From Escherichia phage p000v, in sequence record NC_055781.1: a DNA stretch of 64,000 nt, one strand, 5' to 3'. This document shows, piece by piece, positions 21,644-42,826 of this stretch. Positions within the stretch are counted from its first letter, which is position 1; the number at the start of each line of letters is the position of its first letter. Both the position numbers and the translations under genes were made by a program. The notes under the pieces were generated by a model. The model did no database searches. It was given only the letters and a program-made list of their open reading frames with translations, and was not told the DNA's origin.

Positions 21644-24355
21644 ATGAAAGAATTTTACTTAACGGTTGAACAGATTGGTGATTCAATTTTTGAACGTTAC
21701 ATCGATTCTAATGGCCGTGAACGTACTCGTGAAGTAGAATATAAACCATCACTGTTTGCTCATTGTCCGGAAAGTCAGGCTACGAAATATTTTGATATCT
21801 ACGGTAAGCCGTGTACTCGTAAACTATTCGCTAACATGCGTGATGCGTCTCAATGGATTAAACGCATGGAAGATATCGGACTTGAAGCACTTGGCATGGA
21901 CGATTTCAAATTAGCGTATTTGTCTGACACTTATAACTATGAAATCAAATACGACCATACAAAAATTCGTGTGGCTAACTTCGACATCGAAGTAACATCT
22001 CCGGATGGGTTCCCTGAGCCGTCACAAGCAAAACATCCTATTGATGCTATCACCCATTATGACTCAATTGACGACAGGTTCTACGTATTTGATCTATTGA
22101 ATTCTCCATATGGTAATGTAGAAGAATGGTCTATTGAAATCGCTGCTAAGCTTCAAGAACAAGGTGGTGATGAAGTTCCATCTGAAATTATCGATAAAAT
22201 CATTTATATGCCGTTCGATAACGAAAAAGAATTGTTGATGGAATATCTCAACTTCTGGCAACAGAAAACTCCTGTCATTTTGACTGGATGGAACGTTGAG
22301 TCATTTGATATTCCATATGTGTATAACAGAATCAAGAATATTTTTGGCGAATCTACTGCGAAACGTTTATCACCACATCGTAAAACTCGTGTTAAAGTTA
22401 TCGAAAACATGTATGGTTCTCGTGAAATCATTACATTGTTCGGTATCTCTGTTCTTGATTACATTGACCTTTACAAAAAATTCTCTTTTACCAATCAACC
22501 GTCGTATTCTCTGGATTACATTTCAGAATTTGAATTGAACGTTGGTAAACTGAAATATGACGGCCCTATTTCTAAGCTTCGTGAAAGCAATCACCAACGA
22601 TATATTTCTTATAACATCATCGACGTGTATCGTGTATTGCAAATTGATGCTAAGCGCCAGTTCATCAACTTGAGTTTGGACATGGGTTATTATGCTAAGA
22701 TACAGATTCAATCTGTGTTCAGCCCAATTAAAACATGGGATGCTATTATTTTTAATAGCCTTAAAGAGCAGAACAAGGTGATTCCACAAGGTCGTTCTCA
22801 CCCGGTTCAACCTTATCCTGGCGCTTTTGTTAAGGAACCTATTCCAAATCGATACAAATATGTAATGAGTTTCGACCTTACATCTCTGTATCCAAGTATT
22901 ATTCGCCAAGTGAATATTAGCCCAGAAACAATAGCAGGAACGTTTAAAGTAGCTCCATTGCATGATTATATTAACGCAATCGCTGAACGTCCTTCAGATG
23001 TGTACAGCTGCTCTCCTAATGGCATGATGTATTATAAAGACCGTGATGGTGTAGTTCCAACTGAAATCACTAAGGTCTTTAATCAACGTAAAGAACATAA
23101 AGGTTACATGCTTGCAGCTCAACGTAATGGTGAAATAATTAAAGAGGCATTGCATAATCCTAATCTTTCTGTTGACGAACCATTAGATGTTGATTATCGT
23201 TTCGACTTCACTGATGAGATTAAAGAAAAGATTAAAAAGTTGTCTGCTAAATCTCTTAATGAAATGTTGTTCAGAGCTCAACGTACTGAAGTTGCAGGTA
23301 TGACTGCACAAATTAACCGTAAATTGCTTATCAACTCACTTTATGGTGCACTTGGAAACGTTTGGTTCCGTTATTACGATTTGCGTAATGCAACTGCAAT
23401 CACAACATTTGGTCAAATGGCTTTACAGTGGATTGAACGTAAAGTTAATGAATATCTGAATGAAGTTTGTGGTACAGAAGGTGAAGCTTTCGTTCTTTAT
23501 GGTGATACAGACTCTATTTACGTATCTGCAGATAAAATTATTGATAAGGTTGGTGAATCTAAATTCCGTGATACCAACCATTGGGTGGACTTTTTAGATA
23601 AGTTTGCACGTGAACGTATGGAACCGGCTATTGATAGAGGTTTCCGTGAAATGTGTGAATACATGAACAATAAACAACACTTAATGTTCATGGACCGAGA
23701 AGCTATCGCTGGTCCTCCGCTCGGTTCTAAAGGTATTGGTGGATTCTGGACTGGTAAGAAACGTTATGCATTAAACGTGTGGGATATGGAAGGTACTCGT
23801 TACGCTGAGCCTAAACTCAAAATCATGGGTCTAGAGACTCAGAAATCTTCGACCCCTAAAGCAGTACAGAAAGCTCTTAAAGAATGTATTCGTCGTATGC
23901 TTCAAGAAGGTGAAGAATCATTACAAGAATATTTTAAAGAGTTTGAAAAAGAATTCCGTCAATTGAATTATATTAGCATCGCGTCGGTATCTTCTGCGAA
24001 TAACATTGCTAAATATGACGTTGGTGGATTCCCTGGTCCTAAATGCCCGTTCCATATTCGTGGAATTCTGACATATAACAGAGCTATCAAAGGTAATATT
24101 GATGCTCCACAAGTTGTAGAAGGCGAAAAGGTATACGTTCTGCCTTTACGTGATGGAAACCCGTTCGGTGATAAATGTATCGCATGGCCTTCTGGTACTG
24201 AAATCACAGATTTAATTAAAGACGACGTACTTCATTGGATGGACTACACTGTTCTCCTTGAGAAGACATTTATTAAACCACTTGAAGGATTCACATCAGC
24301 AGCGAAACTCGATTACGAGAAGAAAGCATCTCTGTTCGATATGTTCGATTTTTGA
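21644..24355 (+). CDS. 43: DNA polymerase gp43 (family B)
   Basis: 903 aa; exo motifs FDIE, polymerase motifs DLTSLYPSII and YGDTDS; N-terminus MKEFYLTVEQIGDSIFERYIDSNGRERTRE matches my recollection of RB69 gp43. Confidence 0.97.
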   Translation: MKEFYLTVEQIGDSIFERYIDSNGRERTREVEYKPSLFAHCPESQATKYFDIYGKPCTRKLFANMRDASQWIKRMEDIGLEALGMDDFKLAYLSDTYNYEIKYDHTKIRVANFDIEVTSPDGFPEPSQAKHPIDAITHYDSIDDRFYVFDLLNSPYGNVEEWSIEIAAKLQEQGGDEVPSEIIDKIIYMPFDNEKELLMEYLNFWQQKTPVILTGWNVESFDIPYVYNRIKNIFGESTAKRLSPHRKTRVKVIENMYGSREIITLFGISVLDYIDLYKKFSFTNQPSYSLDYISEFELNVGKLKYDGPISKLRESNHQRYISYNIIDVYRVLQIDAKRQFINLSLDMGYYAKIQIQSVFSPIKTWDAIIFNSLKEQNKVIPQGRSHPVQPYPGAFVKEPIPNRYKYVMSFDLTSLYPSIIRQVNISPETIAGTFKVAPLHDYINAIAERPSDVYSCSPNGMMYYKDRDGVVPTEITKVFNQRKEHKGYMLAAQRNGEIIKEALHNPNLSVDEPLDVDYRFDFTDEIKEKIKKLSAKSLNEMLFRAQRTEVAGMTAQINRKLLINSLYGALGNVWFRYYDLRNATAITTFGQMALQWIERKVNEYLNEVCGTEGEAFVLYGDTDSIYVSADKIIDKVGESKFRDTNHWVDFLDKFARERMEPAIDRGFREMCEYMNNKQHLMFMDREAIAGPPLGSKGIGGFWTGKKRYALNVWDMEGTRYAEPKLKIMGLETQKSSTPKAVQKALKECIRRMLQEGEESLQEYFKEFEKEFRQLNYISIASVSSANNIAKYDVGGFPGPKCPFHIRGILTYNRAIKGNIDAPQVVEGEKVYVLPLRDGNPFGDKCIAWPSGTEITDLIKDDVLHWMDYTVLLEKTFIKPLEGFTSAAKLDYEKKASLFDMFDF

Positions 24356-24395
24356 TATAATGCCATGGACGGTAAACTAATTAAATGAGAGAAAT

Positions 24396-25031
24396 ATGAA
24401 AACTACACCAATCACTATCGCTATTGACGCAATCGTAAAACAAGCTTCATCTCTTGCCACTATGGCTAAAGTAATTAGTCAAAACTCTGCCCGATATAAT
24501 GCTATTCTTGAAACTCTTCGTCGCCCTGGACTGAGTAATTATGAAAGCCGAGTAATTATTACAGGTGTTGGTAAGAACGCTAATATCGCAACTAAAGCTT
24601 CCGAGACTTTTGCTTCACTAGGTATTCCTAGCATGTATTTGAACACCGGGCATTATTCTCATGGCGACGCAGGATTTATTGCACCTAATGATGTATTAGT
24701 TCACATCAGTCGTTCTGGTAAGACTGAAGAAATGATAGGTGTTGCTAAACATCTTCGTATGATTCGTCCTCAGGTTAAACAGATTCTGTTACATTGTAAC
24801 CCTGACATTCCGCAAGAATACGAAGCTCTTTTTGATTATACGTTCTGTACAGGCATCGCGGTAGAGGTTGATGAGAATTCTCTGGCTCCGACCATGTCCA
24901 CTACATTGTTGTTAGCGCTTATCGATACGTTTGCTATCAACCTTTCGTCTGAACGTGGATTTACCTCTAATGACTTCCTTAAGTTCCACCCTGGTGGTGC
25001 ACTAGGTGCCATGTTACGAGGCGAACAATGA
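24396..25031 (+). CDS. SIS-domain sugar-phosphate isomerase, KdsD/KpsF-like arabinose-5-phosphate isomerase without CBS domains
   Basis: ITGVGKNANIATKASETFASLGIPS, SHGDAGFIAPNDVLVHISRSGKTEE and HPGGALG resemble the API SIS domain. Confidence 0.8.
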   Translation: MKTTPITIAIDAIVKQASSLATMAKVISQNSARYNAILETLRRPGLSNYESRVIITGVGKNANIATKASETFASLGIPSMYLNTGHYSHGDAGFIAPNDVLVHISRSGKTEEMIGVAKHLRMIRPQVKQILLHCNPDIPQEYEALFDYTFCTGIAVEVDENSLAPTMSTTLLLALIDTFAINLSSERGFTSNDFLKFHPGGALGAMLRGEQ

Positions 25032-25171
25032 AAGCAATAACAATAGGACTTTTACTATTGATGCTTGTCATGACTATCTACTGGAGCTTAACGGCTCCAG
25101 TAATGATTCCGACTCTTATAATCGGATGGATTATGATTGGACTACAAGCAAAGTATGAATGCTTTAACTAG
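25028..25171 (+). CDS. small hydrophobic peptide (47 aa, two predicted TM helices)
   Basis: ATGA overlap with upstream stop; below ORF-track size cutoff. Confidence 0.35.
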   Translation: MKAITIGLLLLMLVMTIYWSLTAPVMIPTLIIGWIMIGLQAKYECFN

Positions 25172-25184
25172 AATAGTGTACAAT
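25158..25184 (+). promoter_or_regulatory. candidate middle promoter (MotA box TGCTTTA, -10 TACAAT)
   Basis: TGCTTTA at 25160-25166, 12 nt spacer, TACAAT at 25179-25184. Confidence 0.4.
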
Positions 25185-25212
25185 ACACCTACTTACCAAT
25201 GAGGACTTCAAC

Positions 25213-26898
25213 ATGAAAAAAGCTGTTATTCTTGGTGCTGGACTGGCAACTCGTTTGTATCCAATAACGCACCATATTCCTAAGGTGCTTGTTAACTATA
25301 AACAAGACACTATTCTGAGCAATTTGTATACAATTTATTCTGACCTTGGCGCAGATGAAATTATTGTAGTAGTTCATTCAAAATTTGCTGAAACTGTTCG
25401 AGCTTATTGCGAGCAAGAAGGGTTCAATGTGACTATTCGTACAGTTGATGAAGCGTATGGTTCTGCTTATGCTCTTGCTAAATTATACAAAGATTTAGAT
25501 GGCCATAACGTAATTGTTAACTGGTGTGATATTATTCCTGACTTTGGTTCATGGTCTTGGAATGTTAACGCAATCTATGTTAAGGGTGATGAATGTCGAT
25601 ATAATTTCGATGGTGAAAATATCACTAACGTAGGTTCAACAGGTGGTAATGTTGTAGGAATTTATCAGTTCAAAGACTGGGAATTCTACATGGGTTCTAC
25701 TGATGAGGAAATTCACGAATACTGCAAAGGTCGTGATTTCGTAGAATTCCTTTACGGCAGTGCATTCAATAAATCAGAGCTTATGAATCTAATTGATTTA
25801 GGTGATATGCCTAAACTTGAAAAGGCTCATGAAGTTCGTGAACTGAATCGTAGTTTTAATGCAGTTGAAATTGGCGAAGAAACTGTAACTAAATTCGCGT
25901 TAACCGAACAAGGTCGAGCTCTTCAAAAAGATGAGATTTCATGGTATTTGAAAGTGAAATCAGATTCAGTTCCTCAGTTAGTTTCGGTAAATGAAAATAA
26001 TTTTGAAATGGAACGTATTAAAGGTAAGCCGGCATTTGAATATATTAAATCCAAATCAAGTCTTGCTCGTCCACAAATTGTTGATGCAATTTTAGATGCA
26101 CTGAAATTCAGCACGGACACTTATTTTGTAAGTCCTGAAACTGTTCGCCGTGATTTCACTAAAGAGTTCTATACGAAAGTTATTGATCGTTGTGAAAGCA
26201 TTCAGCCATTGATTGATTCATTTGGTAAAATCACACGTGTGAACTACACTAAGATTGGACGTCTGAAGCCAATGTTGAAACAAGCTTTAGAACATCTTAT
26301 TCGTTATCATAACCGTTCTCAGGGACAGTACTCTGTTATTCATGGTGACCCGAACTTCAGTAATACTATGATTACCGATAACGGCGAAGTCAAGTTTATC
26401 GACCCTCGTGGATATTTTGGTGAAACCAAGATTTACGGGCCAAAATTGTATGATGAAGCTAAAGTGCTTTATGCTGTTTCAGGTTATGATGAATTCAATG
26501 CTAATCCGACCTGGGGTCAGTTTACTATTGATGAAACAACTTGTAATGTGACTATTAACATCAATCCATTAGTTTACAAATATGGAAAGATGAGTTCGTT
26601 TAACGAGTATCATCATTTGGCAGTAGCAATTATCTGGATTGCATTAGGTGGTTATTTCAAGAATAATCCACTTAAAGCGGTTGCCGCATATTATAAAGGT
26701 ATGGAACTTCTGACTAAGCAATTACGTAACATGGGCCGTGTACTTCAAGACGGCTCTATTAGTTATGACGTAGCAGAACCTGTAACGGCTACTCTGATTA
26801 CAAAAAATCCTGGTAAATGGGTACTAACTGATAAAGAAACTGGTGTTTCCTATCGTCCAATCGGCGGCGATATCACTCATCAATGGGAACGAATCTAA
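25213..26898 (+). CDS. bifunctional sugar-1-phosphate nucleotidyltransferase / APH-like sugar kinase
   Basis: N-terminus ILGAGLATRLYPITHHIPKVLV is an NTP-transferase signature; C-terminal HGDPNFSNTMITDNGEVKFIDPRGYFG is an APH/choline-kinase catalytic motif. Confidence 0.8.
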   Translation: MKKAVILGAGLATRLYPITHHIPKVLVNYKQDTILSNLYTIYSDLGADEIIVVVHSKFAETVRAYCEQEGFNVTIRTVDEAYGSAYALAKLYKDLDGHNVIVNWCDIIPDFGSWSWNVNAIYVKGDECRYNFDGENITNVGSTGGNVVGIYQFKDWEFYMGSTDEEIHEYCKGRDFVEFLYGSAFNKSELMNLIDLGDMPKLEKAHEVRELNRSFNAVEIGEETVTKFALTEQGRALQKDEISWYLKVKSDSVPQLVSVNENNFEMERIKGKPAFEYIKSKSSLARPQIVDAILDALKFSTDTYFVSPETVRRDFTKEFYTKVIDRCESIQPLIDSFGKITRVNYTKIGRLKPMLKQALEHLIRYHNRSQGQYSVIHGDPNFSNTMITDNGEVKFIDPRGYFGETKIYGPKLYDEAKVLYAVSGYDEFNANPTWGQFTIDETTCNVTININPLVYKYGKMSSFNEYHHLAVAIIWIALGGYFKNNPLKAVAAYYKGMELLTKQLRNMGRVLQDGSISYDVAEPVTATLITKNPGKWVLTDKETGVSYRPIGGDITHQWERI

Positions 26899-27284
26899 TG
26901 CACCGTGTAGAAAACATGCTTAATCTTTGTTTTGATGTCGATGATTGTATAACAGAGTGGAATAACAATCGTGATTACGTGAACTTCAAACCAGACGTCG
27001 AAATGGTGTCTGCCATTAATGCCCTGTATGATGCAGGGCATACCATAACGCTTTACACTGCCCGTGGTATGAAGTCGGTAGGTCCTGGTCGTATAGCAAT
27101 TGACATTCTCCCAAGTCTGATTCAGAACTTGGAAAACATTGGTTTGAAGTACCATAATTTGCTAACACATAAACCAGTATATGATTGGATTATCGACGAC
27201 AAAGCTATGCGTCCTGACGAATTCAAAGCTCTTATGAATAAAGGCGAATTCGAAACATTTAAATCATATAAACCAAATCTATAA
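26883..27284 (+). CDS. HAD-superfamily phosphatase (small, capless)
   Basis: Motif I FDVDDCIT, motif II TLYTAR, motif III/IV K..(n)..IIDDKA; alternative ATG at 26898. Confidence 0.7.
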   Translation: MGTNLMHRVENMLNLCFDVDDCITEWNNNRDYVNFKPDVEMVSAINALYDAGHTITLYTARGMKSVGPGRIAIDILPSLIQNLENIGLKYHNLLTHKPVYDWIIDDKAMRPDEFKALMNKGEFETFKSYKPNL

Positions 27285-27341
27285 TAATTTAAGTAAGACC
27301 TGCAAAAACCATCGCATCAATTAACGCGAGATGCAAAAAAA

Positions 27342-28502
27342 ATGAATACTTTTAAAATCGGAACGAATTTTGATTTAGCTCTTCTTGATAAAATCGTAGA
27401 GCTCAATAAAACCTATCCTAATAGCTTGATAAACGAAGTATATGGCTCTACAAGAGAAATGGCTTTTGTAGCAGCCAGACCTGATTTTAGGCTTCCTGAC
27501 GTTGACAAAAAGATGTTAGAAGACTACGTTAAACGTTGTAACGAATTAGGTATTTGCTTTAACTATACACTCAACACGATAAATCCTGGTTCAAAAAGAG
27601 AACTAGTTGAGTGGAAGAAGAAAGCTATTCAGGATTATGTTCAGTATCTTTGGTCAATAGGCGTATGGCGTATTACTATCGCTAACCCTGTTGTTATGGA
27701 AATTGTTCGTGAAGTCAATAAAGATATTGAGATTGAAGTTTCAACAATTCTACATGTCGATGCGGTAACTCAAATCAAATACTTACATGACCAATATAAC
27801 ATCAAAAAGGTCTGTTGCGGAATTCATAAGAACCGTTCAGTTTCTTTCCTGAAGCGTGCAGCAGAGTTTTGCAATAAGAACAATATAATATTTGAAGTTC
27901 TTGTAAATGAGTTCTGTTCTAATGCTGGTAAAGGGTATACAACACATTGTAGTTATCGTGACTCTTGCTATATTTTCCATAGTACTGATGTTACCGCTGA
28001 TGATGCTAAATCCTTAAATGGATATCCTATGCAGCACTGTATTAAAGCTCGTGATACAGACCCATTTAACTGGTTGAGAACTCGTTTTGTTCGTCCTCAA
28101 GATTTGAAACTTTATAATGATATTGGTATCACTCAATTCAAAGTTTCAGGACGTACAGGTAGCACAGACTACATTTTGAAAGTTCTTGAAGCATACGCTT
28201 CTGAAAAGTTTGAAGGTAATTTGTTAGAACTGTGGAAGCCTTTAGAGACTATTTTCACTCTTGAAAATGAGACTGAGTTTTCACATACAGTAAATATTGA
28301 AACCTCTTTGTTAGATGGCTTTTTAGAAAAAAGGTGGTTCAGACATCCAGATTTTGATTGTGCTAATGAAATCTGTGGGTCAACGTGTACATATTGTGAA
28401 AGGTATTATAAACGTCAATTATCTAAAAACGGGTTAGCAGAAAACTCCATATCTATTATTGATATAACTAACTCTGATGACGCTTTGAGGTACCCGGAAT
28501 GA
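27342..28502 (+). CDS. Cys-rich protein of unknown function (possible metal or Fe-S enzyme)
   Basis: 386 aa; Cys clusters CC, C-x10-C-x6-C and C-x4-C-x3-C-x2-C; no recognisable family by eye. Confidence 0.6.
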   Translation: MNTFKIGTNFDLALLDKIVELNKTYPNSLINEVYGSTREMAFVAARPDFRLPDVDKKMLEDYVKRCNELGICFNYTLNTINPGSKRELVEWKKKAIQDYVQYLWSIGVWRITIANPVVMEIVREVNKDIEIEVSTILHVDAVTQIKYLHDQYNIKKVCCGIHKNRSVSFLKRAAEFCNKNNIIFEVLVNEFCSNAGKGYTTHCSYRDSCYIFHSTDVTADDAKSLNGYPMQHCIKARDTDPFNWLRTRFVRPQDLKLYNDIGITQFKVSGRTGSTDYILKVLEAYASEKFEGNLLELWKPLETIFTLENETEFSHTVNIETSLLDGFLEKRWFRHPDFDCANEICGSTCTYCERYYKRQLSKNGLAENSISIIDITNSDDALRYPE

Positions 28503-28738
28503 TTTCTAGAAAAAGTTTTAATTATAAACTTAACGAAGAGATTTTGACTATGAAACTGAACACTAACGAACAAATTCTTAAAAAGGCCCTTATGGGCCTG
28601 TTTGAAACCAAAGCGGCTAAAGTGATTAAAGAACCTGTTCAATTGGAATACTACGCTGATGCATTTCTTCATAGTGTTCTTGGAAGTATCGATGCTGAAG
28701 CTTTACGTTATATCAACATTGTCAAGAAATTCAAATAA
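28499..28738 (+). CDS. hypothetical protein
   Basis: ATGA overlap with upstream stop. Confidence 0.4.
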   Translation: MISRKSFNYKLNEEILTMKLNTNEQILKKALMGLFETKAAKVIKEPVQLEYYADAFLHSVLGSIDAEALRYINIVKKFK

Positions 28739-28761
28739 GCTTTACGAATTGAGTATATAAT
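28738..28761 (+). promoter_or_regulatory. candidate middle promoter (MotA box AGCTTTAC, -10 TATAAT)
   Basis: GCTTTA, 10 nt spacer, TATAAT upstream of gene 42. Confidence 0.4.
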
Positions 28762-28780
28762 AAATTGTATTGAGGTAAAC

Positions 28781-29497
28781 ATGGGAAAACATAACACAAT
28801 GAAATATATCAAAGCCGCAGATTTTCAAACCGCATTTAAAGCAGTCAATCGTGAAATTTTAGAAAACCCGGAATTCGTAACTGATTCTCGTATTGGACGT
28901 TGTAATGAAATTGGGTCTATGACAGTAGTTGTTGACACTCCATCATCATTCAAAATGACCGACCCACGTATTAACCGCATCTCTTATGAATATGCCGAAG
29001 ACTTCTGGAAGTTTATGATTTCTGGTGGTACCAACGCAGAAGAAGCGTTTAAGGCATATCCTAATGTCGCTAAATTTATTTCTAAACCAAAATCAGATGT
29101 TTTGCCGGCGAACTTCAACACTTTCTATGGTCCTCGCATTGCGGCCCAATTACCAACTCTTCTAAAAGAACTTAAAGAGAAGCCTAACTCCCGAAGAGTT
29201 GTGTTCCAAATTCTAGAAAGTTCTGATCAGGCTTTGCTTGATTCGGACGAAACACTTGAATATCCATGTACTGACTCAGTAACTTATTATATTCGTGATG
29301 GTAAGCTTTATACCCACTGTCATATGCGTTCTCAGAACTGTGCTGTTGTTATGCAGTTGGATTTTTATCTCCAAGGAAAATTACTTCATTATATCGCTAA
29401 CGAATGCGGTGTAGAAGTTGGTGATTATACTCATACCATGGTAAGTGCCCATGTGTTTGAACGTGATTTTGATTATGTTAAAGGATTCCTTGACTAA
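28781..29497 (+). CDS. 42: thymidylate-synthase-fold pyrimidine hydroxymethylase (dCMP hydroxymethylase gp42)
   Basis: TS-like motifs NSRRVV, catalytic Cys in EYPCTDS, HMRSQN; synteny with T4 gene 42. Confidence 0.75.
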   Translation: MGKHNTMKYIKAADFQTAFKAVNREILENPEFVTDSRIGRCNEIGSMTVVVDTPSSFKMTDPRINRISYEYAEDFWKFMISGGTNAEEAFKAYPNVAKFISKPKSDVLPANFNTFYGPRIAAQLPTLLKELKEKPNSRRVVFQILESSDQALLDSDETLEYPCTDSVTYYIRDGKLYTHCHMRSQNCAVVMQLDFYLQGKLLHYIANECGVEVGDYTHTMVSAHVFERDFDYVKGFLD

Positions 29498-30396
29498 TGG
29501 CTATTTTCCGCGTACCAATCTTGAGTATGCGGTCTTATGAAACTGGACAGTATGCTATCCTTAAGGATGGCAACTTCCAACTTCATTTGCACCGTGCTAA
29601 TCCGGGTGATGTGATTACATATCCACGTAATGCATCTGATATTAAAGAATGCGAACGTCTTTTCCCAGAATTTAAGTTTGTTCCATTATGGTATAAAGAT
29701 AACGCGTATAACACTCGTAAATATTTCTGGACTGAAAATGAATTTGTGGTTGATTCATTAATTGATTATTATGATTGTGATTTTCTAATCACAGATATCA
29801 CTGGTTATGGTGGCGCTTTTGATGTGGAATTCAATTTCAATATCACTGCAGACCCTAATAAACCACGTTTTTATATTGATGAATTCTTAAAAACCGACAT
29901 GTTGTCTGTTAATCGTTCACTTCAAACTACTGTGTTGAATGAACGTCAAAAAGAAGTGCTGGTTAACGCAGGTGCAGATGGTAATAAGATTATCGTAACG
30001 CAGAAAGTTATACGTCCTTCCATCATGCAGCGTCTTGTAGGTGATTTGGCTCCTATTCATCTAGATGGTATTTTTCATCCATTTCGAATTAGTGACCCAT
30101 GTTATCGTTTTGAACAAGTGGTTGAATGTGCAATTCAATTAGGTCAACCGCTTTATATAACCGATCCAAATAATAGCTTCGACAGAAATAAGTATCCTGA
30201 AGAAGCGCTGATTCGAATTTTTAAACCAACTAAAACTGAGTACTATCAAATTCTTAAAGGACGTCCGAAAATTCAATATTTCGAAAATCCTGAAGAAGTA
30301 TTCCATCCAGGTCTTGGTGAGTTCATCTACTTTAATGCTTTAATTTCTTCGCCGTATAATATACCTAAATACGAAGATGTCGTAATCGAGGAATAA
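29497..30396 (+). CDS. hypothetical protein occupying the T4 b-gt position
   Basis: 299 aa; coupled start TAATG; no recognisable motif. Confidence 0.55.
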   Translation: MAIFRVPILSMRSYETGQYAILKDGNFQLHLHRANPGDVITYPRNASDIKECERLFPEFKFVPLWYKDNAYNTRKYFWTENEFVVDSLIDYYDCDFLITDITGYGGAFDVEFNFNITADPNKPRFYIDEFLKTDMLSVNRSLQTTVLNERQKEVLVNAGADGNKIIVTQKVIRPSIMQRLVGDLAPIHLDGIFHPFRISDPCYRFEQVVECAIQLGQPLYITDPNNSFDRNKYPEEALIRIFKPTKTEYYQILKGRPKIQYFENPEEVFHPGLGEFIYFNALISSPYNIPKYEDVVIEE

Positions 30397-30397
30397 A

Positions 30398-30946
30398 ATG
30401 GCTAAAATTATTTTAGTAGATGGCCCGGATAATGCCGGTAAAACAACTTTCATTAATGACATAATGGAAATTAGTGAAAGATATGTAAAGATTGATTTCC
30501 CTAAACGAACAGTTGATGGACGTTTCGATGTTAAGTCTCGAAATGAAGTTGGCTGTTTCGAAACGATGTTGAATTATTTAGACCCTACTAAGATTTATCT
30601 GTTAGACCGTGGATATATTAGTAACTGGGTTTATGGACGTATTCGACAAGATGCGGACTCGATTCTTGACGTTTATGAACAGGACTATGTTCGTCTTTGC
30701 CAAAACCATGATGTGTTCACAATTATTTTAACACGTAACGAAATGACTGAAAGTTTTGAAGACGACCTTATTACTTTGTCTTCATTCGGTTTTAATACAG
30801 TCATTTCACATTTTGAAGAGTTTGCAATTCATAACAAAATCCAAACATATCAATTACTTAATCATGATGGTGCTAACAAAGTTATAGGATTTAATGCAAG
30901 CGAACGTAATGGTTTGATTACAGAAATCATCAAATGGGCTCGTTAA
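30398..30946 (+). CDS. P-loop kinase-like protein
   Basis: Walker A GPDNAGKTT and LLDRGY motif reminiscent of nucleoside/nucleotide kinases. Confidence 0.55.
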   Translation: MAKIILVDGPDNAGKTTFINDIMEISERYVKIDFPKRTVDGRFDVKSRNEVGCFETMLNYLDPTKIYLLDRGYISNWVYGRIRQDADSILDVYEQDYVRLCQNHDVFTIILTRNEMTESFEDDLITLSSFGFNTVISHFEEFAIHNKIQTYQLLNHDGANKVIGFNASERNGLITEIIKWAR

Positions 30947-42079: not shown

Positions 42080-42826
42080 ATGTTATCAAATAATAAAATT
42101 AACAAAATCAATCGTCGTCTTGACCACACCAGAGCTTCTGCGAAGAGACGCTCTAAGGATTTTAACTTAGACTTTAATTACCTTAAAAACATTCTTGATC
42201 AAAAGGTCTGCGCTTACTCAGGTGAATCTTTCAATAACGCTGTTGAAGGTGAGAAATTATCCTTAGAACGTTTTAATAACGATATCGGCTACATTAAAGG
42301 TAATGTTATCCCAGTTAAGAAAAAATATAACACGGCTCGTTCTGATTTAACATTAGAAGAACTTATTGAGAAACGTGATGCCATTGCAAGACGTATCGCT
42401 AATCCTTCTGTCCGTAAAGTAGAGAAACTTAATCTCGACGAGAAGAAATGGGCCCAAATCAAAAAGGTTTATGATACCATTTTAAAAATCCGAGCAAAAC
42501 GTGAAAATCGTGTTAAGCATATGGCGAACATGATGAAAAATCAACCTTTATCTAACGAATCTAAACTTAGAATTGTTGCTTTGAAAGCACGCATTAACGG
42601 CTCACATCAAGCGGAAGGACATGAACTTACTAAACTCAACGTTCTTCTTAAAGGCTCTGACTGGAAAACTAAAACTAAATTAACTGACGCTGAATCGCTT
42701 TTCGATACATATGATAAAGTTATCCAAGGTCTGCAACGTTTTGAAAAGATTGGTTTCATTGGTAAATTAAAATTGAAACGTGGCCTACCACTTAGCGCAT
42801 CATTATTCCAACTGATTAAAGGTTAA
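42080..42826 (+). CDS. hypothetical basic protein at the position of T4 srd
   Basis: Synteny and size only. Confidence 0.5.
   Translation: MLSNNKINKINRRLDHTRASAKRRSKDFNLDFNYLKNILDQKVCAYSGESFNNAVEGEKLSLERFNNDIGYIKGNVIPVKKKYNTARSDLTLEELIEKRDAIARRIANPSVRKVEKLNLDEKKWAQIKKVYDTILKIRAKRENRVKHMANMMKNQPLSNESKLRIVALKARINGSHQAEGHELTKLNVLLKGSDWKTKTKLTDAESLFDTYDKVIQGLQRFEKIGFIGKLKLKRGLPLSASLFQLIKG

What the first reader, a model, noticed from the sequence alone, without database searches (positions are those of the whole stretch)
24396..28502. Four-gene sugar-nucleotide biosynthesis island between DNA polymerase gene 43 and hydroxymethylase gene 42
In T4 the 43-42 interval holds only the small imm genes. 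Here it is 4.1 kb and encodes a SIS-domain arabinose-5-phosphate-isomerase-like protein, a nucleotidyltransferase fused to an APH-like kinase, a HAD phosphatase and a Cys-rich protein, all co-oriented and translationally coupled, with their own MotA-type promoter. Read as a pathway: ribulose-5-P -> arabinose-5-P (SIS) -> arabinose (HAD) -> arabinose-1-P (kinase) -> NDP-arabinose (nucleotidyltransferase), i.e. a phage-encoded donor supply for DNA glycosylation. The island sits next to the hmC-producing enzyme gene, and both canonical glucosyltransferase genes are missing from their T4 positions. From memory, arabinosyl-hmC has been reported for RB69-type phages with only a candidate transferase named; I know of no characterised biosynthetic route, but cannot verify that here.
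Basis: partly seen in the sequence, partly recalled or inferred. Interest (0 to 1): 0.92.

Follow-up and report, generated by a model that had tools for sequence, protein, structure and literature searches.

The report
Known phage DNA-arabinosylation gene island
This is the gene cluster RB69-type phages use to make the activated arabinose that decorates their modified cytosines; the pathway was published between 2018 and 2026, but one very conserved gene in it (a U32 iron-sulfur protein) has no published role in the papers I could read and looks like an oxygen-independent cytosine hydroxylase.

Summary
The island is real, but it is not new. The window comes from an RB69-like Mosigvirus. Between DNA polymerase gene 43 and the ThyA-family gene lie six co-oriented ORFs, not four: a SIS arabinose-5-P isomerase, a 47-aa membrane ORF, a 561-aa nucleotidyltransferase/kinase fusion, a HAD phosphatase, a 386-aa peptidase-U32-family Cys-rich protein and a 79-aa ORF. 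The arabinose-donor role was proposed in 2018. It was characterised biochemically in phage HY126 (AfhE/AfhF) and mapped onto RB69 gp51–55 in 2026. The modified base is 5-hydroxycytosine, not hmC; the neighbouring "gene 42" is an O2/flavin-dependent 5-hydroxy-dCMP synthase. The kinase acts before the phosphatase (Ara-5-P → Ara-1,5-P2 → Ara-1-P → UDP-Araf). The Cys-rich protein is probably not a sugar-pathway enzyme. The U32 protein is where something may still be new. It is the most conserved protein of the cluster. In other phage genera a chorismate mutase gene is adjacent to or near it, overlapping it where directly adjacent. In distant phages lacking any nearby ThyA homolog it sits with kinase, glycosyltransferase and arabinose genes. 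Among E. coli paralogs it matches RlhA, the rRNA 5-hydroxycytidine synthase, best. I infer a prephenate-dependent, O2-independent route to 5-hydroxycytosine; this is untested.

The parts
21644..24355 (+). Gene 43 DNA polymerase (left boundary, context)
   Evidence: 903-aa ORF; annotated DNA polymerase in matching phage records.
24356..24361 (+). TATAAT hexamer directly after the polymerase stop codon; possible -10 element; no MotA box upstream
   Evidence: Sequence read; pattern search found no GCTTNA-N10-13-TANNNT site here.
24396..25031 (+). SIS-domain arabinose-5-phosphate isomerase (RB69 gp55 equivalent): Ru5P <-> Ara5P; single SIS domain, no CBS pair
   Evidence: Pfam SIS 9.6e-10; NCBIfam KpsF/GutQ 8.5e-32, KdsD 3.4e-30, matching only profile positions ~2-153/268; motifs GVGK57 and SRSGKT105; role proposed in PMC13326640.
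25028..25171 (+). 47-aa hydrophobic (about two TM segments) ORF, ATGA-coupled to the SIS gene (RB69 ORF054 position); function unknown
   Evidence: Homologs follow the SIS gene in most SIS-carrying T4-like loci (absent in 92A1 and phiP4-3) and occur in no locus lacking SIS. Annotated 'transmembrane segment(s)' in LC53. Not an Imm-family protein.
25161..25184 (+). MotA-box/-10-like middle-promoter candidate (GCTTTA-N12-TACAAT) upstream of the 561-aa gene
   Evidence: pattern enriched in the window: 45 vs 13.6 expected.
25213..26898 (+). Bifunctional enzyme (RB69 ORF53_52 / HY126 AfhE equivalent): C-terminal APH/ePK-like kinase (Ara5P -> Ara-1,5-P2) and N-terminal sugar-1-P nucleotidyltransferase (Ara-1-P + UTP -> UDP-Araf)
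   Evidence: Pfam NTP_transferase 1.3e-9 at residues 3-99; weak kinase hits at 354-409. NCBIfam sugar-1-P nucleotidylyltransferases 1e-13. PDB 1jyk 2.3e-5. Motifs H377GDxxxxN384 and D397. Activities as relayed in PMC13326640. Single 561-aa ORF, as re-sequenced by Thomas 2018.
26883..27284 (+). HAD-superfamily phosphatase (RB69 gp51 / HY126 AfhF equivalent): Ara-1,5-P2 -> Ara-1-P; overlaps the previous gene by 16 nt
   Evidence: PDB 9iqw 4.1e-87 and 1xpj 1.5e-10; NCBIfam TIGR01689 1.9e-13; motifs D18xD20, T59, K89, DD105-106; activity as relayed.
27258..27285 (+). Sigma-70-like promoter candidate (TTTAAA-16-TATAAT) in the end of the HAD gene/57-nt gap before the U32 gene, followed by a small stem-loop (27312-27329)
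   Evidence: Consensus match only; function not shown.
27342..28502 (+). Peptidase-U32-family, Cys-rich protein (RB69 gp50 equivalent). Inferred: Fe-S, prephenate-dependent, O2-independent C5-hydroxylase of a cytosine nucleotide (or DNA cytosine)
28499..28738 (+). 79-aa ORF, ATGA-coupled to U32 (RB69 ORF049 position); small helical protein of unknown function; not a chorismate mutase
   Evidence: No Pfam/NCBIfam hit. hhalign vs phage CMs probability 0.5%. Homologs lie between U32 and CM in Yersinia TG1 and Serratia 92A1. AF2 pLDDT 72, no fold match.
28739..28761 (+). MotA-box/-10-like middle promoter candidate (GCTTTA-N11-TATAAT) upstream of the ThyA homolog
28781..29497 (+). ThyA-family 5-hydroxy-dCMP synthase (RB69 gp48 equivalent), O2/flavin-dependent; not a hydroxymethylase (right boundary, functionally linked)
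   Evidence: PDB 9iqc/9ir2 2.9e-160; signature C146, L143E, N177D, D169N; 25% identical to T4 gp42; activity and 18O2 labelling in PMC13326640.
29497..30396 (+). 299-aa putative DNA arabinosyltransferase 1 (RB69 gp46:47 equivalent), in the T4 beta-gt slot
   Evidence: no similarity to T4 beta-gt; GT-B-like by structure according to PMC13326640 Table 1; homologs next to U32 in distant phages.
30398..30946 (+). 182-aa thymidylate-kinase-like P-loop nucleotide kinase (RB69 gp45 equivalent)
   Evidence: GPDNAGKTT P-loop; PMC13326640 Table 1; a kinase (c5, Pfam Thymidylate_kin 3.8e-6) occupies the corresponding position in distant loci (not detectably homologous by phmmer).

Best explanation
The island is the sugar-donor module of the 5-arabinosyl-hydroxy-cytosine DNA hypermodification system of RB69-like (Mosigvirus) phages. 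The SIS protein diverts ribulose-5-P to D-arabinose-5-P. The C-terminal kinase domain of the 561-aa protein phosphorylates C1 to give arabinofuranose-1,5-bisphosphate. The HAD phosphatase removes the 5-phosphate. The N-terminal nucleotidyltransferase domain condenses Araf-1-P with UTP to UDP-Araf. The downstream 299-aa glycosyltransferase, and a second one elsewhere in the genome, then transfer arabinose onto 5-hydroxycytosine in DNA. That base enters DNA as 5-hydroxy-dCTP, made from dCMP by the adjacent ThyA-family flavin/O2 hydroxylase plus kinases. Shown experimentally in near-identical proteins of other phages (by others): the hydroxylase, kinase/pyrophosphorylase and phosphatase activities, and arabinosyl-5hoC in Mosigvirus DNA. 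Inferred here: that this window's proteins do the same (family, motif and near-identity evidence), and the isomerase step. The fifth enzyme-sized gene, the U32 protein, is most likely not part of sugar synthesis. My best inference is that it is a prephenate-dependent Fe-S hydroxylase providing an O2-independent route to 5-hydroxycytosine (see the novel case).
For: Identity of the locus: 99.6% DNA identity to Mosigvirus phages and conservation in ~150 genomes. Gene-for-gene correspondence with the RB69 gp45-55 cluster described in PMC13326640. Family assignments: SIS/KpsF-GutQ; NTP_transferase plus kinase motifs HGDxxxxN/D397; HAD with DxD and near-identity to PDB 9iqw; ThyA homolog near-identical to PDB 9iqc with the D169N signature. 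Published biochemistry, second-hand via Lee et al.: AfhE is an Ara5P kinase plus UDP-Ara pyrophosphorylase and AfhF is an Mg-dependent phosphatase. Arabinose directly on C5-O of cytosine in RB69 and in Mosigvirus NP. The same SIS + bifunctional + HAD + GT set recurs in unrelated viral contigs, as expected of a functional pathway module.
Against: No experiment was done on this exact phage. The isomerase step and UDP as the carrier in RB69-type phages are computational in the paper I could read. That paper's Table 1 still lists the older order, in which the HAD enzyme acts on Ara5P. The primary biochemical paper (He et al. 2026) and Mahler et al. 2025 are not in the held library, so their data reach me only through Lee et al. 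Dhakavirus, Klebsiella-type and some Proteus phages lack the SIS gene, so the isomerase is dispensable, presumably because host KdsD/GutQ supply Ara5P.
Confidence: 0.9

Rival explanations
1. One reading: Ara5P is first dephosphorylated by the HAD enzyme to free arabinose, which the kinase then phosphorylates at C1 before nucleotidyl transfer.
For: Chemically possible. The same order is still written in Table 1 of PMC13326640 ('dephosphorylates Araf5p to Ara', 'phosphorylates Ara to Araf1p').
Against: The text of the same paper, citing in vitro work on HY126 AfhE/AfhF, gives Ara5P -> Ara-1,5-P2 -> Ara-1-P. The 5-phosphate locks the furanose form needed for Araf. The HAD protein resembles bisphosphate phosphatases of the heptose pathway.
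Confidence: 0.06
2. The island makes a Kdo-, heptose- or capsule-type sugar for the host envelope and has nothing to do with DNA.
For: Database labels in phage records: 'phosphoheptose isomerase', 'capsule biosynthesis protein', 'GlmU'. The best NCBIfam hits are to KdsD/KpsF and a capsule phosphatase.
Against: All hits are far below the equivalog cut-offs. The genes always sit with the 5hodCMP synthase, a DNA glycosyltransferase and a nucleotide kinase. Mosigvirus DNA carries arabinose on cytosine.
Confidence: 0.02
3. The U32 protein belongs to the sugar branch, as a 'sugar or heterocycle reductase' (Lee et al.'s label) or another sugar-tailoring enzyme.
For: Labelled so in Table 1 of PMC13326640. 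In nine distant viral loci it lies beside SIS + bifunctional + HAD genes.
Against: Acinetobacter DLP3-type and Dhakavirus phages have the arabinose genes without U32, and arabinosyl-5hoC is reported for DLP3 and for two BASEL phages I take from memory to be Dhakaviruses. Several distant loci have U32 with kinase + GT + dCTPase-like + polymerase genes but no SIS or bifunctional gene. No characterised U32 protein acts on a sugar. Chorismate mutase or DAHP synthase adjacency fits a prephenate-using hydroxylase.
Confidence: 0.12
4. The U32 protein (with CM in other genera) is an auxiliary metabolic gene acting on host targets, such as anaerobic ubiquinone synthesis or rRNA/tRNA hydroxylation, and not on phage DNA precursors.
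For: All characterised U32 proteins act on host quinone or RNA. hhalign's best match is RlhA, an rRNA enzyme.
Against: It is consistently embedded in DNA-modification or deoxynucleotide gene clusters across unrelated phages: dCMP deaminase, Tmk-like kinase, NT5C, dNK, GT, polymerase. E. coli already has RlhA, TrhP and UbiU/V. The phage protein lacks RlhA's long C-terminal extension.
Confidence: 0.1
5. The U32 protein is what its database name says: a collagenase-like peptidase.
For: Annotations 'peptidase' or 'collagenase-like protease' in many records.
Against: The name is historical. The characterised members are needed for prephenate-dependent hydroxylations and bind or depend on Fe-S clusters. 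Ten invariant cysteines and the genomic contexts do not suggest proteolysis.
Confidence: 0.02

Closest known systems
RB69 gp45-gp55 cluster / phage HY126 Afh system (5-arabinosyl-hydroxy-cytosine biosynthesis; Thomas 2018, Mahler 2025, He 2026, Lee 2026)
   Same: Same genes in the same order. The HAD and ThyA-homolog proteins are near-identical to solved structures 9iqw and 9iqc. The 561-aa fusion equals the corrected RB69 ORF53_52. Same proposed chemistry.
   Different: Nothing essential. This window is not RB69 itself: its best matches are FP43/PECP20, and the 561-aa and 299-aa genes are intact rather than split by the RB69 sequencing errors. The U32 gene (gp50), the 47-aa ORF (ORF054) and the 79-aa ORF (ORF049) have no assigned role in the papers I could read.
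T4 hmC glucosylation system (gp42 dCMP hydroxymethylase, alpha-gt and beta-gt, host UDP-glucose)
   Same: Same logic and same chromosomal neighbourhood: 43 ... ThyA-family enzyme, glycosyltransferase, uvsX. A modified dCMP is made before replication and sugar is added to DNA afterwards.
   Different: The base is 5-hydroxy-C, not 5-hydroxymethyl-C. The ThyA homolog has D169N, uses flavin/O2 and is only 25% identical. The donor is phage-made UDP-arabinose rather than host UDP-glucose. The GT is unrelated in sequence to beta-gt. T4 has imm.1 and imm in the interval.
ADP-heptose pathway of Gram-negative bacteria, GmhA (SIS isomerase) - HldE (bifunctional kinase/nucleotidyltransferase) - GmhB (HAD phosphatase); from established knowledge (Kneidinger et al. 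2002), not tested here
   Same: Same four-step logic: isomerase, anomeric kinase giving a bisphosphate, HAD phosphatase removing the distal phosphate, then nucleotidyl transfer, with the kinase and nucleotidyltransferase fused. Lee et al. report a Foldseek match of the HAD protein to the heptose-1,7-bisphosphate 7-phosphatase. Several phage records even label these genes 'phosphoheptose isomerase'.
   Different: Pentose rather than heptose, and UDP rather than ADP/GDP. The kinase domain is APH/protein-kinase-like (HGDxxxxN), not ribokinase-like. The domain order is nucleotidyltransferase then kinase. It works like this pathway but is not a member of it.
Prephenate-dependent U32 Fe-S hydroxylation factors: RlhA (ho5C2501 of 23S rRNA), TrhP (ho5U34 of tRNA), UbiU/UbiV (anaerobic ubiquinone)
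   Same: U32 Pfam domain above threshold; U32 TIM-barrel fold; conserved Cys at the UbiU/RlhA/TrhP positions. Best profile match is RlhA, which hydroxylates C5 of cytidine. A prephenate-making enzyme is encoded next door in many phages. It is paired with an O2-dependent enzyme for the same product, as with TrhP/TrhO and UbiUV/UbiIHF.
   Different: Only ~18-19% identical to the E. coli proteins. Cys spacing is altered (C192-x10-C203-x5-C209-x23-C233 instead of the compact motif). There is an extra invariant C-terminal CX4CX3CX2C cluster. The presumed substrate is a deoxynucleotide or DNA rather than RNA or quinone. No biochemical data exist.

Membership tests
KpsF/GutQ/KdsD arabinose-5-phosphate isomerases | SIS domain with the phosphosugar-binding motifs | tested here: met
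   Pfam SIS 38.8 bits (cut-off 25); NCBIfam kpsF 8.5e-32 and KdsD 3.4e-30; GVGK57 and SRSGKT105.
KpsF/GutQ/KdsD arabinose-5-phosphate isomerases | C-terminal tandem CBS domains (full-length KdsD/GutQ architecture) | tested here: not met
   Protein is 211 aa. It matches only positions ~2-153 of the 268-position kpsF profile and scores far below the equivalog cut-offs (110.8 vs 203.7; 105 vs 505). It is a SIS-only relative, not an equivalog.
KpsF/GutQ/KdsD arabinose-5-phosphate isomerases | Ru5P <-> Ara5P isomerase activity | not testable with these tools
   Only proposed computationally in PMC13326640.
AfhE-type bifunctional Ara5P 1-kinase / UDP-arabinose pyrophosphorylase | N-terminal sugar-1-phosphate nucleotidyltransferase domain | tested here: met
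   Pfam NTP_transferase 38.4 bits (cut-off 21.2) at residues 3-99; PDB 1jyk 2.3e-5; G-x-G-x-x-R...PK motif at the N-terminus.
AfhE-type bifunctional Ara5P 1-kinase / UDP-arabinose pyrophosphorylase | C-terminal APH/protein-kinase-like domain with catalytic loop and Mg-binding Asp | tested here: met
   H377GDPNFSN384 and IDPRG (D397). The Pfam kinase families hit only below threshold (Fructosamin_kin 3.8e-3, EcKL 7e-3). Structural matches 3ham/6hwl are reported for the RB69 protein.
AfhE-type bifunctional Ara5P 1-kinase / UDP-arabinose pyrophosphorylase | Both enzymatic activities | not testable with these tools
   Reported for HY126 AfhE, known to me only through PMC13326640; primary paper not held.
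AfhF-type HAD phosphatase | HAD catalytic motifs and close homology to the solved HY126-type protein | tested here: met
   PDB 9iqw 4.1e-87 over residues 5-133; 1xpj 1.5e-10. D18xD20, T59, K89, DD105-106. NCBIfam TIGR01689 1.9e-13, below cut-off. No Pfam hit.
ThyA-family 5-hydroxy-dCMP synthase (neighbouring gene 28781-29497) | Catalytic Cys146 plus N177D, L143E and the diagnostic D169N (E. coli ThyA numbering) | tested here: met
   Alignment; signature defined in PMC13326640; near-identity to PDB 9iqc, 2.9e-160.
   D169N and E58F in the window's protein, whereas T4 gp42 keeps D and E; 25% identity. It is homologous, but not a hydroxymethylase according to the experiments.
Peptidase U32 family (prephenate-dependent Fe-S hydroxylation factors) | U32 domain by sequence profile | tested here: met
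   Pfam PF01136 42.2 bits vs cut-off 22.4, residues 94-286; all 120 listed homologs but three carry PF01136.
Peptidase U32 family (prephenate-dependent Fe-S hydroxylation factors) | U32 TIM-barrel fold | tested here: met
Peptidase U32 family (prephenate-dependent Fe-S hydroxylation factors) | Four conserved Cys that ligate the [4Fe-4S] cluster | tested here: inconclusive
   C209 is invariant in all 12 aligned sequences and C203 aligns with the UbiU/RlhA/TrhP Cys. The other two canonical positions are not aligned. C192 and C233 are invariant in the phage clade and could substitute.
Peptidase U32 family (prephenate-dependent Fe-S hydroxylation factors) | Dependence on prephenate and O2-independent hydroxylase activity | not testable with these tools
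   Indirect only: chorismate mutase or DAHP synthase genes adjacent in T4-like and unrelated phages. This window's phage itself has no CM.
AroQ chorismate mutase (considered for the 79-aa ORF 28499-28738) | CM_2 profile match and the catalytic Arg/Arg/Lys/Glu/Gln set | tested here: not met
   No Pfam/NCBIfam hit at E<=10 or E<=1. hhalign vs six phage CMs gives probability 0.5%. Only two Arg residues in the protein.
Imm superinfection-immunity protein (considered for the 47-aa ORF) | Imm_superinfect (PF14373) profile match | tested here: not met
   No hit, while T4, IME08 and 92A1 Imm score 7e-16 to 9e-18. Only a weak shared GW motif by BLASTP.

The most novel reading that the evidence does not exclude
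The 386-aa U32 protein inside the island (27342-28502) is a prephenate-dependent, oxygen-independent C5-hydroxylase that makes 5-hydroxy-(d)cytosine. It would give these gut-dwelling phages an anaerobic alternative to their O2-requiring ThyA-type 5hodCMP synthase, as TrhP backs up TrhO and UbiU/V back up UbiI/H/F in E. coli. In many unrelated, often jumbo, phages a relative of this protein is clustered with chorismate mutase or DAHP synthase, a Tmk-like kinase, a glycosyltransferase and often the UDP-arabinose genes, with no ThyA homolog nearby. There it would be the sole hydroxylase of a ThyA-independent glycosyl-hydroxypyrimidine DNA modification pathway. This would be the first DNA-precursor substrate for the U32 family. 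Caveat: He et al. 2026 and Mahler et al. 2025 could not be read, so part of this may already be in print.
Probability: 0.4. Interest if true: 0.78.

Novelty: already known. Interest (0 to 1): 0.42.

Why it matters
The arabinose-donor pathway explains how a whole group of therapeutic-candidate coliphages hides its DNA from restriction enzymes and CRISPR nucleases, but that has been published. What may still matter is the U32 gene. The only demonstrated route to 5-hydroxycytosine in these phages consumes molecular oxygen, yet their hosts live largely without it in the gut. An O2-independent, prephenate-driven hydroxylase would resolve that paradox. It would extend the recently recognised 'organic oxygen donor' chemistry from RNA and quinones to DNA precursors. 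It would also explain why phages carry chorismate mutase or DAHP synthase genes, and it would predict a family of ThyA-independent DNA hypermodification clusters in uncultivated phages. It is testable with existing tools: anaerobic infection, deletion mutants, and LC-MS of nucleosides.

Tried and rejected
(1) The 79-aa ORF as a diverged chorismate mutase: rejected. It has no Pfam/NCBIfam hit, hhalign probability is 0.5%, and it coexists with a true CM in TG1 and 92A1.
(2) The 47-aa ORF as a remnant of T4 Imm: rejected, despite a weak GW-motif similarity.
(3) A chorismate mutase elsewhere in the window: the weak HMM hit at 42080-42826 has no Pfam support, and tblastn found no Mosigvirus CM.
(4) A MotA-type promoter upstream of the first island gene: not found.
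(5) A structure for the 79-aa ORF: low confidence (pLDDT 72) and no fold match.
(6) AFDB fold search for the U32 model: the library was unavailable. No solved RlhA/TrhP/UbiU/UbiV structure turned up in the PDB searches.
(7) Reading He et al. 2026 (Nat Chem Biol) and Mahler et al. 2025 (Cell Host Microbe): not held.
(8) A simple host-aerobiosis rule for U32 presence is only partly upheld. Acinetobacter and Rhizobium/Agrobacterium phages lack it, but so do the E. coli Dhakaviruses, and these groups amount to only a few independent lineages.
(9) tRNA scan of the region: none found.

Full report
WHAT IS THERE. The window is from a T4-like phage of the RB69 group (Mosigvirus). The stretch 24300-28800 is 99.6% identical to Escherichia phages FP43 and PECP20 and >=95% identical in about 150 phage genomes. 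Downstream of the 903-aa DNA polymerase (21644-24355) I find six co-oriented ORFs before the ThyA-family gene at 28781-29497:
- 24396-25031, 211 aa
- 25028-25171, 47 aa
- 25213-26898, 561 aa
- 26883-27284, 133 aa
- 27342-28502, 386 aa
- 28499-28738, 79 aa

After the ThyA-family gene come a 299-aa ORF (29497-30396), a 182-aa P-loop protein (30398-30946) and then the ORFs in the uvsX, gene 40 and gene 41 positions (named by T4 synteny, not annotated here). Base composition does not single out the island.

CHECK OF THE OBSERVATION.
- SIS: Pfam 9.6e-10; NCBIfam KpsF/GutQ 8.5e-32.
- Nucleotidyltransferase fused to a kinase: NTP_transferase 1.3e-9 at the N-terminus, and the catalytic-loop motif H377GDxxxxN384 plus D397 in the C-terminal half.
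- HAD phosphatase: no Pfam hit, but TIGR01689 1.9e-13, D18xD20, and 4e-87 to PDB 9iqw.
- The 'Cys-rich protein' is a peptidase-U32-family protein (42.2 bits against a cut-off of 22.4).

'Translationally coupled' holds for three gene pairs only, with gaps of 41 and 57 nt between them. The MotA-type promoter candidates lie before the 561-aa gene (25161), the ThyA homolog (28739) and the kinase (30337), not before the first gene.

IT IS ALREADY DESCRIBED.
- Thomas et al. 2018 (PMC6024577) nominated RB69 ORF055c and the re-sequenced 561-residue ORF53_52c as UDP-arabinose synthesis candidates.
- Lee et al. 2026 (PMC13326640) showed that RB69 DNA carries mono- and di-arabinosylated 5-hydroxycytosine with an ether link to C5. 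They showed that the ThyA homolog gp48 makes 5-hydroxy-dCMP using O2 (18O2 labelling, bound flavin). They assigned gp55, gp52:53 and gp51 to Ru5P -> Ara5P -> Ara-1,5-P2 -> Ara-1-P -> UDP-Araf, citing in vitro work on HY126 AfhE/AfhF by He et al. 2026.
- A second group found the same modification in Mosigvirus NP and states that the earlier 'arabinosyl-hmC' assignment was erroneous.
- The PDB copy contains near-identical structures of the ThyA homolog (9iqc/9ir2/9iqu, 2.9e-160) and the HAD protein (9iqw, 4.1e-87).
- The window's ThyA homolog carries the published signature (C146, L143E, N177D, D169N; T4 gp42 keeps D169) and is 25% identical to T4 gp42.

The base, the order of the kinase and phosphatase steps, and the claim of novelty are not.

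HOW THE KNOWN PART WORKS. The logic is that of the bacterial ADP-heptose pathway, which I cite from established knowledge and did not test here. A SIS isomerase is followed by an anomeric kinase that makes a sugar bisphosphate. A HAD phosphatase then removes the distal phosphate, and a nucleotidyltransferase fused to the kinase completes the pathway. The domain families of the kinase differ, however. The module is flexible. The SIS gene is missing from Dhakavirus, Klebsiella-type phages, Proteus phage PM2 (though not phiP4-3) and Thanatos, and the 47-aa ORF is missing wherever SIS is; most SIS-carrying loci have it. The bifunctional, HAD, ThyA-homolog, GT and kinase genes are always present.

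THE UNEXPLAINED GENE. Lee et al. list the U32 protein (gp50) only as 'sugar or heterocycle reductase' and never discuss it. The Durham and Thanatos papers do not assign it either. Full-text searches found no paper linking U32 or chorismate mutase to phage DNA hydroxylation. [quoted passage not shown]

My evidence on this gene is as follows.

(ii) Cysteines. Ten Cys are invariant in 50 homologs: C158, C177, C192, C203, C209, C233 and a C-terminal CX4CX3CX2C cluster. C209 is invariant in the alignment with E. coli UbiU, UbiV, RlhA and TrhP, and C203 aligns with the UbiU/RlhA/TrhP Cys.

(iii) Closest E. coli paralog. The phage family profile matches RlhA, the 5-hydroxycytidine-2501 synthase, best (E 3e-5 over 203 columns including the Cys motif). 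TrhP gives 2.7e-3 and UbiU 1.3e-2.

(iv) Conservation. It is the most conserved protein of the cluster across genera at 79-89% identity. The polymerase C-terminus is 64-83%, the ThyA homolog 71-82% and the bifunctional enzyme 42-72%.

(v) Chorismate mutase linkage in T4-like phages. In every non-Mosigvirus T4-like genus examined but one, a bona fide AroQ chorismate mutase lies directly after U32 (overlapping its end) or one or two small ORFs downstream. Pfam CM_2 scores 8e-8 to 3e-12, above threshold, and the catalytic R, R, K, E, S, Q positions are conserved. tblastn finds this CM in 51 phage records, every one under or beside the ThyA-homolog and/or U32 annotations. In Shewanella phage Thanatos-2 the cluster is rearranged, yet U32 and CM moved together as an overlapping pair.

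(vi) Relatives outside the T4-like phages. Relatives 44-58% identical are abundant in metagenomes (263 hits). They lie in deoxynucleotide or replication neighbourhoods of large phage-like contigs:
- dCMP deaminase overlapping U32, with Tmk, UDG and PolIII-alpha (L008).
- NT5C, dNK and nucleoside deoxyribosyltransferase (L009).
- dCTPase-like, Tmk-like kinase, GT, U32 and PolIII-alpha in that order (L031, L035, L042, L053).
- GT, SIS, bifunctional, HAD and U32 with a DAHP-synthase/chorismate-mutase fusion or a stand-alone CM (L011, L037-L041, L043-L052).

(vii) Absence of ThyA in those relatives. A six-frame scan with E. coli ThyA, T4 gp42, the window's homolog and their HMM finds a ThyA-family gene in every T4-like locus. 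It finds none (E<=1) in the 31 distant U32 loci. In those clusters U32 occupies the slot that the ThyA-type hydroxylase holds in T4-like phages.

INTERPRETATION OF THE U32 GENE. Published work shows three things. RlhA-dependent ho5C and TrhP-dependent ho5U formation need prephenate and Fe-S clusters. Prephenate is the oxygen donor for UbiU/V. E. coli pairs each O2-dependent hydroxylase with a U32-based O2-independent one (PMC5727448, PMC6599085, PMC10990095). The ThyA-type 5hodCMP synthase needs O2. I therefore infer that the phage U32 protein is an O2-independent, prephenate-dependent C5 hydroxylase for the same product. It would be a backup in T4-like phages of facultative anaerobes and the sole hydroxylase in the distant phages.

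Points against, or left open:
- Nothing has been shown biochemically.
- The window's own phage has no CM and would have to use host prephenate.
- Dhakavirus coliphages lack U32.
- U32 is absent from Acinetobacter and Rhizobium phages (57 and 20 records with the ThyA homolog, none listed with U32). This fits an aerobic-host pattern but amounts to only a few independent lineages.
- Only +-10 kb of each distant contig was scanned for ThyA.
- The substrate could be DNA rather than dCMP.
- Two key papers could not be read.

I put the hypothesis at about 0.4.

OTHER SMALL ORFS. The 79-aa ORF coupled to U32 belongs to its own small family with the motif YYxDAFxHS. It is not a CM. It lies between U32 and CM where both exist. 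It is less conserved than U32 and truncated in some Mosigviruses. It models as three helices with no informative match. The 47-aa ORF is a small membrane protein that accompanies SIS in most SIS-carrying loci and is never found without it. It is not Imm.

VERDICT. Novelty of the finding as stated: already known. What remains of interest is the U32 gene, for which comparative genomics now gives a specific, testable and, as far as the accessible literature shows, unpublished mechanism.

Noticed in passing
window 25028-25171: A conserved 47-aa, about two-TM ORF is ATGA-coupled to the SIS isomerase gene. Across 20+ T4-like loci it occurs only where SIS is present (two SIS-carrying loci, 92A1 and phiP4-3, lack it). 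It is not an Imm-family protein. It is unclear why a cytosolic sugar-phosphate isomerase would travel with a tiny membrane protein.
   Followed up: partly
window 28499-28738; L004:5001-5246; L005:5019-5243: The 79-aa ORF coupled to U32 defines a small family (motif YYxDAFxHS) with no database or fold match. In Yersinia TG1 and Serratia 92A1 it sits between U32 and the chorismate mutase. Among Mosigviruses it is more variable than U32 (87-97% vs 99-100%) and is truncated or frameshifted in some.
   Followed up: partly
L039:8411-9433, L041:7302-8357, L050:11079-12197, L011:9145-9891, L029:9384-10130: Uncultivated, often jumbo-sized phage contigs encode class-I-beta DAHP synthase beside the U32 gene, with or without a C-terminal chorismate mutase domain. 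These are phage-borne shikimate-pathway entry and prephenate-forming enzymes.
   Followed up: partly
L009:8001-15428 (ENA scaffold, 86 kb): A bacterial-looking contig (Glu-Cys ligase, MarR, dockerin-bearing GH43) has a U32 relative in a cluster with NT5C deoxynucleotidase, a PnuC-like transporter, deoxynucleoside kinase, a radical-SAM/SPASM protein, a second faint U32 protein and a nucleoside 2-deoxyribosyltransferase-like gene. This may be a cellular or prophage deoxynucleoside-modification or salvage cluster.
   Followed up: no
L008:7447-9086 (JGI contig, 466 kb): In a 466-kb contig a dCMP deaminase gene overlaps the start of the U32 gene by 4 nt, next to thymidylate kinase, UDG and PolIII-alpha. 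This suggests that a U-based (5-hydroxy-dUMP?) variant may exist.
   Followed up: no
L001:4352-4990; L007:6196-6879: Homing-endonuclease genes are inserted inside the modification cluster: between HAD and U32 in Serratia phage LC53, and between U32 and CM in Proteus phage PM2. This shows that these junctions tolerate insertion.
   Followed up: no
L006:1574-7391 (Shewanella phage Thanatos-2): The cluster order is rearranged (bifunctional, 196-aa HAD-like, ThyA homolog, GT, kinase, then U32+CM). There is no SIS gene, and the HAD-like protein is 196 aa rather than ~130 aa.
   Followed up: partly
window, whole 64 kb: The MotA-box/-10-like pattern GCTTNA-N10-13-TANNNT occurs 45 times against 13.6 expected from shuffles, mostly just upstream of + strand genes. 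This is consistent with a dense set of T4-type middle promoters.
   Followed up: no
window 27285-27341: The only sizeable intergenic gap inside the island (57 nt, before U32) holds a small inverted repeat (27312-27329). The U32 start codon has no obvious Shine-Dalgarno sequence but is preceded by an A-run. This may be a separate regulatory point for U32 expression.
   Followed up: no
L003:4545-8004 (Escherichia phage IME08, Dhakavirus): Dhakavirus keeps a true imm gene after gene 43, has an unassigned 166-aa ORF where SIS would be, places the Tmk-like kinase before the ThyA homolog, and lacks U32, CM, the 47-aa ORF and the 79-aa ORF.
   Followed up: partly
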